Source: Myxococcales bacterium (GTDB lineage: Bacteria; Myxococcota; Myxococcia; Myxococcales; UBA5297). Taken from it: DNA of 64,000 nucleotides. The position numbers and the translations under genes were made by a program. The stretch lies in contig DASXVQ010000049.1 of NCBI GenBank assembly GCA_036504155.1, forward strand, positions 10,952-74,951, given 5' to 3'. Below are positions 28,401 through 41,015 of the stretch, in pieces; the first letter of the stretch is position 1; every line of letters begins with the position of its first letter. The notes under the pieces were generated by a model. The model did no database searches. It had not been told where the DNA came from and saw nothing but the letters and a program-made list of their open reading frames with translations.

Positions 28401-29200
28401 AGCTCTACCAAATCCGCGGACGCGTCGGCCGCTCGCGCGAGCGCGCCTACGCCTACCTGCTGGTGCCGGCCAAGAAGCCGATGACCAAGGACGCCGCCAA
28501 GCGCCTCGAGGTGCTGCAGAGCTTCACCGAGCTGGGCGCCGGCTTCTCGATCGCCTCGCACGACTTGGAGATCCGCGGCGGCGGCAACCTGCTCGGGCCC
28601 GACCAGTCCGGGCACATCGCCGCGGTGGGCTTCGACCTGTACGCGCAGCTCCTGGACGAGGCGGTGCACGAGCTGCGCGGCGAGCCGCTCTCGGAGGTCG
28701 TCGATCCGGACGTGAACCTGCCGGTGCCGGCCTTCATCCCCGACGACTACCTGCCCGACATCCAGATGCGCCTGCTCTTCTACAAGCGCTTCTCGCAGGT
28801 CCAGAACGACGACGAGATCTCGGACTTGCGCGGCGAGCTGCAGGACCGCTTCGGCGAGCTGCCCGACGAGATCGACAACCTCTGCGAGGTCATGGCGCTC
28901 AAGGCGGACATGCGCAAGCTGCGGCTGCGCGCGCTGGAGAGCGGCCCCGGGCGCCTGGTGTTCTCGCTGGGCCAGGACGCGCAGCTCGACCCCGCCAAGC
29001 TCGCGGGGATGGTCCAGCGCTCCAAGGGCGCCTTCCGGCTGACCCCGGAGATGAAGCTCATCTCCACGTTCGACGCCAAGAAGGTCAAGGAGCCCCAGGA
29101 CCTGCTCGGCGAGACCCGGCGCGTGCTGCGGGAGCTGCTCAAGTGCCAGACCGTGGAGCTGCTCAAGGTCAAGGGCGTCGGGCCCAAGCTCAAGAAGTAG
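25472..29200 (+). CDS. mfd: transcription-repair coupling factor Mfd
   Basis: GTG start. It has the UvrB-homology N-terminus, the RNAP-interacting domain, DEAD/DEAH helicase motifs (LICGDVGYGKTEVAL, DEEQRFGV), and the TRCF C-terminal domain. At 1242 aa it carries a Pro/Ala-rich insert (AKWSPALPPAALPPAPSQTTGGG). Confidence 0.9.
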   Translation: MHVSEEVVKPATEEAPTGLPFEAVVSLLRAGQRTIPLAGLKGSARAYVLSRLARAGLGPFVCLCSDEEKADELESDLGFFLGPGTPEAPSTLRLPAAEQLPYDALSPDRRTGFALLATLFHLSQGTRAHALILSGRALVRRYLPPAVLDSHCELVSANQELDRDKLAAKLVSMGYQSVPVVEDAGSFAVRGGIVDVWSPLHGKPVRLEYFGDTVESLRLFEPDTQRTAGALQTLLLCPAREVLFDEAAKAAGIAAVREAADAVNRPSSKVRELLDAIQEGRLAYGLDSLMPGFYGKQLGSVFDYLAKWSPALPPAALPPAPSQTTGGGSAVLDSTLVGAHGTALPRAGVTFFIDDPLAIEGALSEHDRAMQVEFDASRRREELALEPSAHQLSLGEVTKLLSESRRIVSHSVFLGGPGDKPVSFSYGPTAPIRSEILAHHGEHGALTPLVTRLSDWRERGVFAAVAAGSSGQADRLKRLLLERNLMVRVHREGFPENPEAAFEPSVYAHVFTGEVSSGFVDAGGGLALLAEEDIFGQRSRKAARRTRSDQPFIQAFRELKEGDLVVHVDYGIGRYTGLTKMELRGVGTDVMVLQYAGRDKVYLPVQRMRLLQKFTGADAEAVALDKLGSGSWERRKNAVKEHLLKMAAELLKLYAARKAHPGHAFSPPDQYFHQFEADFQFEETPDQEKAIADVLSDMQSKEPMDRLICGDVGYGKTEVALRAAFKAVLDKKQVAILVPTTLLAAQHQRTFTERFKDYAVTVDSVSRLKTSAENRDVLRRCAEGKLDVVIGTHRLLNADVSFKDLGLLVIDEEQRFGVAHKEKIKKYRSQVDVLTMTATPIPRTLHMSMAGMRDMSIIATPPEDRKAIRTFVLKFDPPQIAEAIRREMGRGGQVYFLHNRVESIHQMEKFINEQVPEAKTAVAHGQMHEHELEPVMARFVNREIDVLVCSSIIESGLDIPTANTIIVNRADTFGLSQLYQIRGRVGRSRERAYAYLLVPAKKPMTKDAAKRLEVLQSFTELGAGFSIASHDLEIRGGGNLLGPDQSGHIAAVGFDLYAQLLDEAVHELRGEPLSEVVDPDVNLPVPAFIPDDYLPDIQMRLLFYKRFSQVQNDDEISDLRGELQDRFGELPDEIDNLCEVMALKADMRKLRLRALESGPGRLVFSLGQDAQLDPAKLAGMVQRSKGAFRLTPEMKLISTFDAKKVKEPQDLLGETRRVLRELLKCQTVELLKVKGVGPKLKK

Positions 29201-29674
29201 GCGACTCCGACTTCGACGGCCTCGCCCCCCGACTGACGACTCGCGTGTCCTCTGCGCTCTTCACCCTCCGTCCGACTGGCGCGCCTGGCGGCTGCGCCTC
29301 GGAGTCGTCTATCCTCACTGCCACTTCGAGGGGCGGACAGGCATCGGGCCTCGCTGGCTGACCTCGGCGATGGGACTCCTCGGCCGCTTCGGCTTCCAAA
29401 GACCGCCGTGGATTACGGCTTCGTTCCTCCTAGGCGCCACCACCAGCTTGCCGGGGCTGACCGAGGTGAGGGACCTGTCGGTGCAGTGGACCGGGAGCAG
29501 CGCGACCGACCCGCTGGGCGTCTTCCTCTCGGCCTGGGACTCGGGGCGGTGGCGCGCGCTCACGAGCCCCGCCAACGATCCGATCACCTGGGCGACGGCG
29601 GACAAGACCGAGCTCCGGCGGCCGCAGGCGAAGCGCCTGCGGCCACTGGGCCCACGGCGGCGCGGAGCCGGTCG

Positions 29675-32600
29675 TCAGGGCAGCAGCGTGCCGTTCCACG
29701 GGCTCGCCGCGGCGTCCACGCTCACCGTGCTCGTCAGCGTCGTGAACCCGGCCTTCGTCGCGCTGATCGCGTACGGCCCGGCGTAGACGTTGTTGAGGAT
29801 GAAGTAGCCGTTGGTGTCGGTGGTCGCGGCCAGCCCGTACGGCTCCAGCTTCACCGCCGCGCCGCTCACCGCCGTCCCGCCGCCGTCCTTCACGTAGCCG
29901 AAGAAGCTCACCTTGGCGGGCGCCGTCGCGCCGACCTGCACCAGGAAGTGCGCCGCCTTCTGCGTCAGGTTGCCCTGCGTGTCCTCGGCGACGAGGTGGA
30001 AGTAGTACGCGAAGCCGCTGATGGCCTGGCCCCCGGCGTCCTGCGTGAGCGTGATCCCCGCGTTGGCGGTGCGCGTCCACTGCGCCTTGGCGTTGGCCGG
30101 CGAGGTGTCGCTGACGCGGTCGAGGCGGTACCAGAACGCCGGGAAACTAGCCGCGGTGGTGTTCGCGGGCGGCGTCCACGTCAGCGCGATGGCGGTGCCG
30201 GGGTACCAGGTGGTGGAGCTCGCGTGGCTCGAGGAGGCCACGGTGTGCGCCGTCTTGTTCACGTTGAAGAGGAAGCGGTTGGCCAGCGTGCCCACCGCCG
30301 CCGTGGCGTCCTGGCCGACGATGCTGAAGGCCGAGGCGCCGCCCGACAGGATGGTGGCCGCCGGGAAGCTGGCGGTCAGGCCCGTGCCGAAGGTGCTGTT
30401 GGTGGGAGTGACCGCGACGGTGCGGCTGCCGATGAGGCTCCAGTAGCCCTGCGCGCTGGCGAACGGCGCGAGCCAGGAGATCGACAGCTGGCTGAAGCCG
30501 TCGTTGTAGGAGAGCGCCGGGTCGGGGTGCGTCGACGAGGTGATCGAGAGCGGCGGCGTGACCGAGACGACCGCGGTGGTGCCGGTGACGGTCGCGGTGT
30601 TGGTGAGCTTGGTGCCGTAGGCGATCTTGACCCAGCCCTCTCCGCCCTTGCCGCCGTTGGCGGGGTAGGTCGAGAAGGGGCTGGGCGTGCCGCCAGTGCC
30701 GCCGAGGGCGCCCGCCGCGGAGAGGGTGCCGCTGAGCATGACGTCCGCAGAGGCGAGGACGATCGATCCGCCGGCGCCGCCGCCGCTGCCCGCGCCGTAG
30801 TTGCTGGCGTTGATGCCGGCCCCGCCGTCGGCCTTGAGCGCGCCGTAGACCACCAGCGTGCGCGCGGCGATGAGCTTGAGTGCCCCGCCGCCCTTGCCGC
30901 CGGCGCGGACGTAGGACGCGTTGCAGCTGCCGTTGTTGATGTCGACGTAGTTGCAGCCGCTGCCGCCAGAGCCGCCCAGGGGCGCGTCGAGGTCGAGCGA
31001 GCCCTGCGCCGAACCGCCGCTGGCGCCGGTGACGCTGTAGGTCACGCCGCAGACGCTGCCCAGGCAGCCGCCGTACTCGAAGCTCTTGTTGCAGCCCACG
31101 GTGGTCTTGGCGTTCTCGCCTGCGGTCTTGTTCCCGCCTCCGCCGGCGCCGGTGTAGGCGATCTCGGTCACGCAGACCGGGGCGTAGTAGTTGTAGCTCG
31201 CACCCGACGCATCGGTGGACACCGCGCTCAGGTCGATGCTGGAAGCCGGGTCGATCGAGATGTCGTCGGCGTACACGGTGAGCGCGCCCGTGGAGCAGGT
31301 GACCTTGGCGCCGCCCTGGATGATCAGCTTGCCCAGGTGCTGCTCGCCGCACAGCTCGCGGCTCGCGGAGATCGTCAGGTCCGGCAGCGTGATCGTCAGG
31401 CTGCAGGTGGCCTGGTTGGTGGCGCCCTTGTCGTCGGTGACGGTGAGGGTCGCGGTGAAGCTCCCGCGCGAGGCGTAGGCGTGCTGCACGCTGGTCGCCG
31501 CGCCGCTGGCGGGCGCCGTGCCGTCGCCGAAGTCGAAGGCGTAGAGGACGACGCTGCCGTCCGGGTCGCTGGACTGCGAGGCGTCGAGGGTGAGCGCGGC
31601 GCCCTGCGTGCCCGAGGCGGGGCAGGTCAGCTTCGCCACCGGCGGCTGGTTCACCGCCACGGTGATGGCCACGTCGCAGCTGGCCTGCGCGGTCGCGCCC
31701 AGGTCGTCGGTCACGGTGAGCGTGACGGTGAAGGTGCCGGCCGCGGCGAAGGCGTGCGTCGTCGACACGCCGCTGCCCTTCCCGCCGTCGCCGAAGTCGT
31801 ACGCGTAGCCGGCGACGGTGCCGTCGGGATCCGTGGAGGCCGAACCGCTGAAGGTGAGCGCCTGGCCGACGAACCCGCTCGAGGGGCAGGCCAGCGCGGC
31901 GTTGGGCGGAAGGTTGGCGGCGCCCGCGGGCTTGCCGGGCGTCGGCACCGCGGTGTGGAAGTCGGTGAGGTTGTCGTTGGTGTCGGTGCAGGCCGCGTCG
32001 CGCGTCAGGCTCTGGTCGTCGAGCGTGTCCGGGGCGGCCGTGCCCTCGCCGGCGAAGTGGTCGGTGGCGGTGAAGGTGCCGTAGCCGACCGCGTCGAGGA
32101 CCGTGGTTCCGTTACGCAGTTGGATGGAGTCCGGGCCGTTCTGGAAGTCGACCTTGGTGGAGGTCACGTCCGCCTGGCTGAGGATCGCCGTCTTGGCGTT
32201 GGGGTGCGCGATGACGAAGTAGCCATCGGCGGGGATGGTGCCGGTCAGGGCGATGGCGTTGTAGTCCGCGCCATCGGAGCCGTTGACGCCCACCAGCGTG
32301 TGGTTGGCCAGGCTCGCGCCCGCCGGGCCGTGCAGCTCGACGAAGACGTCGTAGTCGGTGCCGGTCGCCCGGTAGAGCACCTCGGAGATCTTGACCAGCG
32401 AGGGCGCGGAGACGGCGACGGTGCAGGTGGCGGTGCCGGTGGCGCCCTTGTCGTCGGTCACGGTCACCGTGGCGGTGTAGCTGCCGGCCGCCGAGAACGC
32501 GTGCTGCGCGGTCGCGCCGGCGCCCGCGGCCGAGGTCGCGCCGTCGCCGAAGGCGTAGGAGTAGCCGGCGAGGGTCCCGTCGGCGTCGGTCGACTGGCTG

Positions 32601-40894: not shown

Positions 40895-40930
40895 GGGTCC
40901 CCTCTGGCGGTCGGGTCGCGAGTCTGGCCT

Positions 40931-41015
40931 CGAGACGGTCCTGCGCGAGCTGCTCAAGTGCCAGACCGTGGAGCTGCTCGAGGTCAAGGGCGTCGGGCCC
41001 AAGCTCAAGAAGTAG
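40931..41015 (+). pseudogene. duplicate of the last ~85 nt of mfd including its TAG stop (1-2 mismatches versus 29111-29200), lying in the intergenic region 11.7 kb downstream of mfd
   Basis: Direct alignment: gagctgctcaagtgccagaccgtggagctgctc[a/g]aggtcaagggcgtcgggcccaagctcaagaagtag. Confidence 0.7.

What the first reader, a model, noticed from the sequence alone, without database searches (positions are those of the whole stretch)
29111..41015. The last ~85 nt of mfd (with its stop codon) are directly repeated 11.7 kb downstream, bracketing a second accessory block
29111-29200 and 40931-41015 are near-identical direct repeats, both ending in aagctcaagaagtag. Between them lie six elements. 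They are the giant Cys-repeat/PKD/beta-helix lipoprotein, an IS3 transposase remnant with an internal mfd fragment, the HEAT-repeat membrane protein, the two-TM Ser/Thr kinase, the ECF sigma factor and the flotillin-like SPFH protein. Together with the activator-gene repeat this indicates two successive insertions, or one nested event. Each regenerated the 3' end of the gene it targeted. No integrase is visible inside the block.
Basis: seen in the sequence. Interest (0 to 1): 0.75.

Follow-up and report, generated by a model that had tools for sequence, protein, structure and literature searches.

The report
Leftover mfd gene end marks insertion
The last 79 bases of the DNA-repair gene mfd really are repeated 11.8 kb downstream, and the second copy is best read as a dead leftover from accessory genes being recombined in behind mfd: an ordinary scar of genome shuffling, not a new kind of mobile element.

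Summary
The repeat is real: 29123-29201 and 40938-41016 match at 76/79 positions, both ending one base after the mfd stop codon. An independent JGI assembly has the identical sequence. Copy 1 is the working end of mfd (1242 aa); its tail is conserved in related Mfd proteins. Copy 2 lies in the spacer between the convergent SPFH and 183-aa genes; a 53-aa ATG ORF (40854-41015) reads through it but nobody calls it as a gene.

The closest relative (Mfd 87% identical) lacks this block and also the 10.3-kb block between the sigma-54 activator and mfd. Its downstream genes are different again, so a clean empty site was never seen.

No integrase, phage gene, tRNA or paired IS was found. More mfd pieces lie downstream (52558-52632 solid, 34396-34434 probable). 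An internally deleted activator fragment sits at 25159-25278. A more distant relative has its own mfd relic.

Best reading: repeated single-crossover, insertion-duplication events anchored in core genes, probably by host recombination with DNA from related strains. An e14/icd-like island that lost its integrase remains possible.

This is a new example of a known kind. Interest is modest.

The parts
25472..29200 (+). Intact mfd (transcription-repair coupling factor, 1242 aa).
   Evidence: Pfam finds UvrB_inter, CarD_TRCF_RID, DEAD, Helicase_C and TRCF. It is 87% identical to P0002 and 100% to NCBI HEY3446372.1.
29123..29201 (+). Repeat copy 1: the last 25 codons of mfd, the TAG stop and one further base. 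This is the working 3' end.
   Evidence: The tail ...VLRELLKCQTVELLKVKGVGPKLKK is conserved in Mfd proteins of the clade at 68-87% identity.
29202..40937 (.). The bracketed block (11,736 nt). It holds a 474-nt non-coding spacer, the giant PKD lipoprotein, the IS3 remnant, mfd piece f1, and the HEAT, Ser/Thr kinase, ECF sigma and SPFH genes.
   Evidence: The block is absent next to mfd in L081, L087, L088, L090 and L001.
29675..34177 (-). Giant lipoprotein, convergent with mfd. JGI calls it as 29675-33934.
   Evidence: Pfam finds PKD_4 three times, LTD and CarboxypepD_reg. GC3 is 0.96.
34208..34330 (-). C-terminal remnant of an IS3-family transposase (...ANVFDYIEAFYNPKRRHSALDYMSPAEFE...).
   Evidence: rve_2 at E = 1.3e-6. 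JGI calls a 50-aa rve_2 fragment here.
34396..34434 (+). f1: a 39-nt piece of the mfd interior (matches 27745-27783, 35/39 identical), 8 nt from the HEAT gene stop. All four differences are synonymous third-codon positions.
   Evidence: The nominal E is 3e-7, but chance hits in this GC-rich window start near nominal 1e-4, so I rate it probable rather than certain.
34442..38605 (-). HEAT-repeat protein (34442-35866), Ser/Thr kinase (35913-37811) and ECF sigma factor (37886-38605).
   Evidence: A kinase, an SPFH gene and an ECF sigma factor are also neighbours in Polyangiaceae locus L085.
38780..40894 (+). SPFH / flotillin-like (YqiK-type) protein, 704 aa.
   Evidence: Band_7. Homologues at 63-79% identity occur across several phyla, and none from the close relative's genome is among the top 120 hits.
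40938..41016 (+). Repeat copy 2 (f2): a relic of the mfd 3' end lacking everything upstream, 43 nt after the SPFH stop and 23 nt before the stop of the convergent 183-aa gene. It may extend to about 40926 if a 6-nt in-frame gap is allowed.
   Evidence: Only a 53-aa ATG ORF (40854-41015) reads through it, and JGI does not call that ORF.
41040..43000 (-). The 183-aa and 472-aa genes immediately to the right of copy 2. Both lack any family match.
   Evidence: No Pfam, NCBIfam or PHROG hit. The 472-aa gene has homologues in other contexts: L093 at 86% and L095 at 60%, near dnaA.
52558..52632 (+). f3: a 75-nt piece of the mfd interior (matches 28130-28204, 63/75 identical), lying between a response-regulator gene and an 851-aa lipoprotein gene. 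It is an older, decayed relic.
   Evidence: E = 6e-16. Its mismatches fall mostly at codon positions 1 and 2, and it is equally distant from the window's mfd and L081's mfd. It is more diverged than f2 (Fisher p = 0.014).
14518..14884 (+). Proximal copy of the activator repeat: the 3' part of the FHA/sigma-54 activator gene (13274-14770) plus 114 nt after its stop.
25159..25278 (+). Distal activator relic: 14518-14613 (92% identical) joined to 14852-14884 (85% identical), with about 240 nt missing. It lies about 195 nt upstream of mfd.
   Evidence: It matches the window's own activator linker, which L081 does not share.

Best explanation
Copy 2 is the end of a displaced partial copy of mfd that no longer does anything. 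The proposed sequence of events is as follows.

1. DNA from a related strain entered the cell. It carried accessory genes together with a 3' portion of that strain's mfd.
2. It recombined with the resident mfd by a single crossover. This could be Campbell-type insertion of a circle, or a linear fragment anchored by homology on one side only.
3. A single crossover of this kind leaves three things in order: an intact mfd on the left, the incoming genes in the middle, and a partial mfd without its 5' end on the right. The partial copy runs up to the stop codon and is followed by whatever lay after mfd before.
4. The partial copy then eroded through an IS3 insertion and deletion, and probably through insertion of the HEAT-kinase-sigma-SPFH module. 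What remains is f1 (34396-34434) and f2 (40938-41016).
5. An earlier event of the same kind left f3 (52558-52632). The same process at the activator gene left 25159-25278.

No dedicated integrase is needed. Today the repeat has no function beyond being a possible substrate for deleting the block.

Shown: the repeat, its relic status, the absence of the block in the relative, the absence of recombinase genes, and agreement between two assemblies.

Inferred: the crossover mechanism, a donor from a related strain, and the order of events.
For: - The repeat is real and both copies sit in one contig in two assemblies.
- Copy 1 is genuine mfd sequence, conserved in the clade. Only a 53-aa ATG ORF (40854-41015) reads through copy 2, and JGI does not call it as a gene.
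- Homology between the two copies stops at TAGG. That is exactly where homology between the window's mfd and L081's mfd also stops. This is what one expects when two mfd alleles from different surroundings are compared.
- L081 lacks both blocks. L087 has DUF4442-HAD-mfd directly adjacent.
- Across the whole 64-kb self-comparison, apart from two paralogous FGE-sulfatase genes and the tandem repeats inside repeat-protein genes (excluded from this count), the only dispersed direct repeats are fragments of mfd and the activator. These are two of the genes shared with L081. All are in direct orientation and all are intergenic.
- f1 and f2 lie in the same order as in mfd. Six of their seven differences from mfd are at third codon positions. 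Pure neutral decay would give this with p = 0.007, whereas two working alleles show 61% third-position differences.
- f2 shares three of four window-specific bases against L081, so it split off after the two lineages separated.
- The repeats differ in length: 79 nt, 367 nt, and 288 nt around a 3.8-kb insert in L081. Two different genes are targeted.
- L090 has its own mfd 3' relic 1.8 kb downstream, at the junction of a tandem gene duplication.
- No integrase, phage or conjugation gene, tRNA or Rfam match was found.
- Copy 2 sits 23 nt from a convergent gene. In L081 mfd is 18 nt from its convergent neighbour. Copy 1, by contrast, is followed by a 474-nt spacer.
Against: - The precise empty site was never observed. 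In every relative the gene after mfd is different, and the 472-aa gene to the right of copy 2 lies elsewhere in the closest relative's genome.
- No donor is known.
- If f1 does not belong to the same relic, only 79-91 nt of homology remains, which is short for RecA-mediated recombination.
- f1 is only moderately significant.
- The codon-position argument rests on seven sites.
- A repeat that ends right at the stop codon is also what an integrase attP that restores its target gene would look like.
- The two assemblies may derive from the same reads.
Confidence: 0.5

Rival explanations
1. The block is a decayed site-specific integrative element, like e14 or phage 21 at icd, or SGI1 at trmE. Its attP carried the last roughly 80 nt of mfd, so integration restored the gene. 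The two copies would then be attL and attR. The integrase and any mobility genes were lost later.
For: The direct repeat consists of the target gene's 3' end and stops one base after the stop codon. Two of the three differences are synonymous. The block is absent in the relative. The e14 case has the same layout: icd on one side and the icdC C-terminal pseudogene on the other (PMC13626634). The 3.8% divergence between copies allows time for gene loss.
Against: No tyrosine or serine recombinase, excisionase, or phage or conjugation gene was found. No recognisable remnant appears in the six-frame translations of the 474-nt spacer at the left end or of the IS3-remnant region. The internal mfd pieces f1 and f3 and the 367-nt activator repeat, which includes non-coding DNA, do not fit a fixed att site. 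None of five relatives has an integrase in the DNA recovered downstream of mfd, which was up to 10 kb.
Confidence: 0.2
2. Copy 2 is short templated filler DNA. It was copied from nearby mfd when the SPFH / 183-aa-gene junction formed by a replication template switch or by error-prone end joining. On this reading it does not mark the border of an inserted unit.
For: In L090 the relic is a patchwork of three abutting pieces: mfd 3041-3093 direct, mfd 3164-3202 inverted, and the hairpin that follows mfd. The activator relic is two pieces joined at a GC-rich microhomology. A 15-nt exact copy of the sequence just after the mfd stop (29204-29218) lies 26 nt from f1.
Against: f2 is a single direct piece, and its right end coincides exactly with the end of mfd and the border of the block. 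Random templated copying would not predict that. The sequences flanking f2 are not copies of anything nearby. An equally good 15-nt chance match turned up in the same search, so that clue is weak. A fresh local copy would not differ from its template by 4-16%.
Confidence: 0.12
3. An 11.8-kb tandem duplication (unit 29123-40937) was followed by loss or replacement of nearly all of the second unit. Alternatively, a complete second mfd gene decayed in place.
For: Tandem duplication with a breakpoint inside mfd clearly happened in L090: the 505-aa and 580-aa paralogues share a 520-nt stretch at 94% identity. Blocks 10.3 kb and 11.7 kb long lie between the first two repeat pairs, and 11.5 kb separates f2 from f3.
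Against: No protein or DNA similarity links 29202-40937 to 41017-52750. That cannot be reconciled with a 96% identical tail. It would also require a deletion starting exactly one base after the stop codon.
Confidence: 0.08
4. The repeat is a metagenome assembly artefact, a chimera of strain variants.
For: The source is a metagenome-assembled genome (NCBI TPA). Copy 2 differs from copy 1 by three SNPs, as strain variants would.
Against: The JGI contig is identical over 33 kb and contains both copies and all junctions. A Logan contig also agrees over 41184-45052. Copy 2 begins abruptly after non-mfd sequence, and a collapsed or mis-joined repeat would not create such a junction.
Confidence: 0.03

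Closest known systems
[quoted passage not shown]
   Same: An intact gene whose 3' end is repeated as a dead fragment on the far side of a block more than 10 kb long. The repeat is in direct orientation, shows mostly silent differences and ends at the gene end. Recombination between the copies would remove the block (PMC13626634).
   Different: e14 carries its own integrase and excises after SOS induction. Here there are no recombinase or phage genes, and there are additional internal mfd pieces.
Genomic islands at the 3' ends of housekeeping or tRNA genes (SGI1 at trmE; tRNA-gene islands with tandem accretion)
   Same: A partial copy of the target marks the distal border. Older partial copies lying further out suggest successive events at one site. 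The SGI1/trmE facts come from abstracts listed; tandem accretion is from my own knowledge.
   Different: Those elements use a short fixed att core and an integrase. Here the duplicated lengths vary from 79 nt to probably more than 1 kb, and pieces from the gene interior are included.
Insertion-duplication by single-crossover homologous recombination (Campbell integration of non-replicating circles, as used routinely for Myxococcus genetics) and homology-facilitated illegitimate recombination during transformation
   Same: Both produce exactly this layout without any element-encoded enzyme: an intact or hybrid gene, then foreign DNA, then a copy lacking its 5' end. They also explain variable repeat lengths and allele-like differences. 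This comparison is from my own knowledge; papers on homology-facilitated illegitimate recombination are listed.
   Different: These are known mainly from laboratory constructs and transformation experiments. The natural donor, the uptake route and RecA dependence are all unknown here.

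Membership tests
Integrase-mediated integrative element at a gene 3' end (e14/icd type) | Direct repeats at both borders made of the target gene's 3' end | tested here: met
   29123-29201 versus 40938-41016, 76/79 identical, ending at stop + 1.
Integrase-mediated integrative element at a gene 3' end (e14/icd type) | A tyrosine or serine site-specific recombinase gene inside the element, usually next to a border | tested here: not met
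   Pfam, NCBIfam and PHROGs between them covered the called genes of the window. Six-frame pieces of the 474-nt spacer at the left border and of the IS3-remnant region were also scanned. The only hit is an IS3 rve_2 remnant.
Integrase-mediated integrative element at a gene 3' end (e14/icd type) | Phage, conjugation or mobilisation genes in the element | tested here: not met
   The contents are a lipoprotein, a HEAT protein, a kinase, an ECF sigma factor and an SPFH protein. The HEAT protein and the unannotated genes flanking the block give no PHROG hit.
Integrase-mediated integrative element at a gene 3' end (e14/icd type) | An empty site in relatives: a single copy of the target end with both flanks conserved | tested here: inconclusive
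   L081 lacks the block, but its downstream genes are unrelated to the 183-aa and 472-aa genes. No closer relative exists in the collections searched.
Integrase-mediated integrative element at a gene 3' end (e14/icd type) | Excision to a circle and a restored attB | not testable with these tools
   This needs the raw reads or a culture.
Single-crossover insertion-duplication by host recombination (Campbell type or homology-facilitated illegitimate recombination) | Foreign DNA flanked by a direct duplication of resident sequence, with the left copy complete and the right copy lacking its 5' end | tested here: met
   mfd is intact. Copy 2 starts at codon 1218 and has no upstream mfd sequence. 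The activator shows the same pattern.
Single-crossover insertion-duplication by host recombination (Campbell type or homology-facilitated illegitimate recombination) | Duplication length not fixed, any gene can serve as anchor, and no element-encoded recombinase | tested here: met
   Repeats of 79 nt, 367 nt, and 288 nt in L081. Two different anchor genes. No recombinase.
Single-crossover insertion-duplication by host recombination (Campbell type or homology-facilitated illegitimate recombination) | Differences between the copies look like divergence between alleles (mostly synonymous) | tested here: inconclusive
   Six of seven differences in f1 + f2 are at third codon positions. Under pure decay p = 0.007; under an even mix of decay and allelic divergence p is roughly 0.05-0.1. 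Only seven sites are available.
Single-crossover insertion-duplication by host recombination (Campbell type or homology-facilitated illegitimate recombination) | RecA dependence and an identifiable donor | not testable with these tools
   The organism is uncultured and no donor sequence was found.
Tandem segmental duplication | Two adjacent units with collinear homologous content | tested here: not met
   Beyond the 79 nt, 29202-40937 and 41017-52750 share no similarity at DNA level or protein level.
Composite transposon or IS-mediated insertion | IS copies or terminal inverted repeats at both borders with a short target duplication | tested here: not met
   There is a single internal IS3 remnant. 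No inverted repeats lie at 29202 or 40937.
Template-switch patchwork junction (MMBIR-like) | Several short abutting templated pieces in mixed orientation, joined at microhomologies | tested here: inconclusive
   This is seen in L090 and perhaps in the activator relic. f2 itself is one direct piece whose flanks are not templated from nearby sequence.

The most novel reading that the evidence does not exclude
In this uncultured Myxococcales lineage, accessory gene blocks about 10-12 kb long may move between strains without any integrase. A 3' fragment of the neighbouring core gene (mfd, or the sigma-54 activator) would serve as a portable stretch of homology. Circles released from repeat-flanked or tandemly duplicated units would re-enter by single crossover, piling up blocks and leaving a trail of core-gene relics. 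The similar lengths (two blocks of 10.3 and 11.7 kb, plus 11.5 kb between f2 and f3) might then reflect a size limit set by whatever carries the DNA.
Probability: 0.15. Interest if true: 0.55.

Novelty: new member of a known kind. Interest (0 to 1): 0.3.

Why it matters
It gives a dated, readable record of how accessory genes accumulated around a core gene in a poorly sampled myxobacterial lineage. Relics of mfd and of the activator gene mark three or four separate events within 40 kb. They also point to integrase-free, homology-anchored insertion as a route for gene gain. In practical terms, it warns annotators that the 79-nt copy and the other fragments are pseudogene debris, not small genes or att sites of an active element. 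It does not reveal a new molecular system.

Tried and rejected
- Exact-protein lookup of the window's Mfd found nothing, because of a different start-codon call. The source was instead identified through the homologue search and the cluster lookup.
- The species-representative genome scan gave only one useful relative, and it shares no neighbouring genes with the window.
- A degenerate scan of metagenome contigs for the mfd tail found nothing. That collection does not even hold the matching JGI contig.
- I tested whether L081's 207-aa and 511-aa genes downstream of mfd are diverged versions of the window's 183-aa and 472-aa genes. They are not.
- I looked for integrase remnants in the six frames of 29196-29700. 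None were found.
- I considered that the two unannotated lipoproteins following core-gene fragments (14907-17357 and 52690-55245) might be the mobile agent. They are ordinary lipoproteins that share only a lipobox and an N-terminal region.
- I treated a fourth mfd match (22692-22720) as a relic and then dropped it, because it sits at the level of chance hits.
- A 41-nt repeat after mfd in L088 turned out to look like a common REP-like element, not a relic.
- The contexts of SPFH homologues showed no mobile module.
- No tRNA, Rfam family or convincing terminator lies at the borders.

Full report
**The observation**

The window is about 72% G+C. It comes from a Myxococcales metagenome-assembled genome: NCBI TPA protein HEY3446372.1, on a contig of 74,951 nt.

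The reported repeat is real. Positions 29123-29201 and 40938-41016 are 76/79 identical without gaps (family D18; E about 5e-30). Both copies end in AAGCTCAAGAAGTAG plus G. With a 6-nt in-frame gap the similarity runs about 12 nt further upstream. The DNA between the copies is 11,736 nt.

A JGI contig (Ga0376481_000645, metagenome 3300035523, 52,050 nt) is 100% identical over window 19675-43934 and 31582-53000, so both copies and every junction appear in a second assembly. A Logan contig matches 41184-45052. The structure is therefore not the product of one assembler, although the reads may be the same.

**What the two copies are**

Copy 1 is the true end of mfd (25472-29200, 1242 aa, with all the expected Mfd domains). 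The duplicated 25 codons comprise the last eight residues of the canonical Mfd C-terminus plus a 17-residue extension that looks like a helix-hairpin-helix (ELLKVKGVGPKLKK). Mfd proteins of this clade at 68-87% identity carry the extension, but Archangium and Myxococcus Mfd do not. The tail is therefore working mfd sequence, not a repeat element fused to the gene.

Copy 2 lies in a 145-nt spacer, 43 nt after the SPFH stop and 23 nt before the stop of a convergent 183-aa gene. Only a 53-aa ATG ORF (40854-41015), which JGI does not call as a gene, reads through it.

It differs from copy 1 at three sites, two synonymous and one Lys-to-Glu. At three of the four sites where the window's mfd differs from its closest relative's mfd, copy 2 carries the window's base. 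The two copies therefore separated after those two lineages split.

**The block**

Base composition and third-position G+C are like those of the host. No integrase, excisionase, phage or conjugation gene, tRNA or Rfam family occurs anywhere in the 64 kb. The 474-nt non-coding stretch after the mfd stop holds no recognisable gene remnant.

The SPFH gene has homologues at 63-79% identity in several phyla, and none from the close relative's genome is among the top hits. A kinase, an SPFH gene and an ECF sigma factor are also neighbours in a Polyangiaceae locus. That part of the block therefore looks like a functional signalling module, not element machinery.

**Relatives**

The closest genome is GCA_049841135.1 (locus L081, Mfd 87% identical). 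It shares DUF4442-HAD, the FHA/sigma-54 activator and mfd with the window at 83-90% DNA identity. It has only an MCP gene between activator and mfd, and unrelated genes after mfd.

Homology between the two genomes stops at TAGG, one base after the mfd stop. This is the same point at which copy 1 and copy 2 stop matching.

A more distant relative (L087, 74%) has DUF4442-HAD-mfd directly adjacent. In all five relatives examined the gene after mfd is different. Two of them even have altered last residues of Mfd.

The predicted empty site, mfd followed by the 41040 gene, was not found. The 472-aa gene next to it is 86% identical to a gene in a different context (L093). It is 60% identical to a gene beside mnmE, yidC and dnaA in the same genome as L081. 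So the block is absent at this site in the relatives, but the right flank is itself variable.

**More relics**

An all-against-all comparison of the window finds few dispersed direct repeats. Apart from two paralogous FGE-sulfatase genes and the tandem repeats inside repeat-protein genes (excluded from this count), all of them are fragments of mfd and the activator, two of the genes shared with L081. All are in direct orientation and all are intergenic.

- f3 (52558-52632) matches mfd 28130-28204 at 63/75 (E = 6e-16).
- f1 (34396-34434) matches mfd 27745-27783 at 35/39. It lies 8 nt from the HEAT gene stop and about 66 nt from the IS3 remnant.
- The activator piece at 25159-25278 consists of 14518-14613 (92%) joined to 14852-14884 (85%), with about 240 nt missing.
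- A fourth mfd match (22692-22720) is at noise level.

The two blocks sit side by side: 14885-25158 is bracketed by the activator repeat, and 29202-40937 by the mfd tail. They are not nested.

L081 has a 288-nt direct repeat (81% identical) around a 3.8-kb insert that the window lacks.

L090 (Mfd 68%) has its own mfd relic 1.8 kb downstream of mfd, at the junction of a tandem duplication of a 505-aa/580-aa gene pair. The relic is three abutting pieces, one of them inverted.

Leaving a piece of the neighbouring core gene behind is thus recurrent in this clade.

**Age and origin of the pieces**

Six of the seven differences in f1 plus f2 are at third codon positions. Two working alleles (window versus L081) show 61% of their differences there, while pure neutral decay predicts one third (p = 0.007 for six of seven). 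In f3 only 2 of 12 differences are at third positions. f3 is also more diverged than f2 (Fisher p = 0.014) and equally distant from both mfd genes.

This suggests that f1 and f2 come from a working mfd allele of a related strain and became pseudogene debris fairly recently, whereas f3 is an older, decayed relic. The numbers are small.

**Mechanism**

The layout is what any single-crossover integration inside the 3' part of a gene produces: an intact gene, then foreign DNA, then a copy lacking its 5' end that runs to the stop codon. Two things point to host homologous recombination, either Campbell-type insertion or one-sided homology-facilitated illegitimate recombination of DNA from a related strain.

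- The duplicated lengths differ between events, two different genes serve as anchors, and there are internal pieces in gene order (f1 before f2).
- No recombinase is present.

The coincidence of the repeat end with the stop codon then needs no special design. It is simply where two mfd alleles from different surroundings stop being alike, as the window-to-L081 comparison shows. I put this at about 0.5.

An e14/icd-like integrative element that later lost its integrase fits copy 2 alone very well (PMC13626634). It does not explain the other relics. I put it at about 0.2.

Templated filler from a replication template switch is suggested by the L090 patchwork. It fits f2 poorly, because f2 is a single direct piece that ends exactly at the gene and block border, and its flanks are not templated. 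I put it at about 0.12.

A decayed 11.8-kb tandem duplication is contradicted by the complete lack of similarity between the two supposed units. An assembly artefact is unlikely given the two concordant assemblies.

**Verdict**

This is a new example of a known kind of scar: a displaced 3' gene fragment marking an insertion. The useful extra finding is that several such scars from two core genes lie in one 40-kb stretch and no integrase is present. Interest is modest, about 0.3. It would rise if read-level or comparative data showed that integrase-free, homology-anchored movement of blocks is still going on and is common in this lineage.

Noticed in passing
window 14518-14884 and 25159-25278: The 3' part of the sigma-54 activator gene plus 114 nt after its stop is repeated 10.6 kb downstream, just upstream of mfd. 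The distal copy is missing about 240 nt internally. The repeat brackets a 10.3-kb block that relative L081 lacks: an unknown lipoprotein, a polysaccharide lyase, a glycyl-radical enzyme and a penicillin amidase.
   Followed up: yes
window 52558-52632 and 34396-34434: Two further pieces of the mfd interior lie in downstream intergenic spacers, both in direct orientation: 84% identity over 75 nt and 90% over 39 nt. The first is older and decayed. All four differences in the second are synonymous.
   Followed up: yes
L090 15413-15539 (GCA_037442205.1): A patchwork of three abutting pieces: mfd nt 3041-3093 direct, mfd nt 3164-3202 inverted, and the hairpin that follows mfd. It sits at the junction of a tandem duplication of 505-aa and 580-aa paralogues whose N-terminal parts and upstream regions are 94% identical over 520 nt but whose C-terminal parts differ.
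   Followed up: partly
window 29123-29200 (Mfd residues about 1226-1242): Mfd in this clade carries a 17-residue C-terminal extension (ELLKVKGVGPKLKK) that resembles a helix-hairpin-helix motif. Archangium and Myxococcus Mfd lack it. Two clade members have different residues at the very end instead.
   Followed up: partly
window 12860-13200; L081 1561-2144 and 6095-6382: A palindromic repeat region lies between HAD and the activator, with 31-nt perfect inverted arms at 12911-12941 and 13126-13156. It is related to a 116-nt tandem array in L081 and to the 288-nt direct repeat there that flanks a 3.8-kb DUF4215/Kelch insert.
   Followed up: partly
window 60726-61027; L081 19076-19258: A roughly 200-nt hairpin-forming element with 48-nt arms (60778-60825 and 60932-60979). 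The arm sequences are 83-94% conserved in the relative at an unrelated intergenic site. It could be a MITE-like element or a structured RNA. No Rfam family matches.
   Followed up: no
window 19296-22670 (-): A single 1124-aa ORF combines a radical-SAM activase domain with a PFL-like glycyl-radical enzyme, so activase and enzyme are fused. The 150-nt spacer to the divergent penicillin amidase gene holds a perfect 12-3-12 palindrome (CTAACATGGACT CGC AGTCCATGTTAG, about 22648-22674).
   Followed up: no
window 14907-17357 and 52690-55245: Two unannotated lipoproteins of about 820-850 aa share a lipobox followed by Cys-Arg-Asp-Phe and a weakly similar N-terminal region (25-27% identity). Each is the first gene after a core-gene end or relic. 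They look like ordinary secreted proteins.
   Followed up: partly
window 58669-59404 and 63260-63998: Two stretches are 89% identical over 744 nt. They belong to paralogous genes; the second has an FGE-sulfatase (SUMF1-like) domain.
   Followed up: no
window 35913-40894; L085 5428-10865: A Ser/Thr kinase, an ECF sigma factor and a YqiK-like SPFH protein are neighbours both here and in a Polyangiaceae metagenome locus. This suggests a conserved signalling module. The SPFH protein is unusually conserved across phyla (63-79% identity).
   Followed up: partly
window 40854-41015 (+): A 53-aa ATG ORF starts inside the SPFH 3' end in another frame and ends with the copied Mfd tail. JGI does not call it as a gene and nothing suggests it is expressed.
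   Followed up: no
window 41306-41325 and 41389-41412: Two perfect palindromes of 20 and 24 nt lie inside the 183-aa ORF to the right of copy 2.
   Followed up: no
window 13274-14770 versus L081 3350-7900: In L081 the activator is called as a 1516-aa protein with a Kelch/beta-propeller N-terminal part. The window has only the C-terminal 498 aa (FHA plus the sigma-54 AAA+ domain). Either the window lost the N-terminal part or the gene call in L081 is merged.
   Followed up: no
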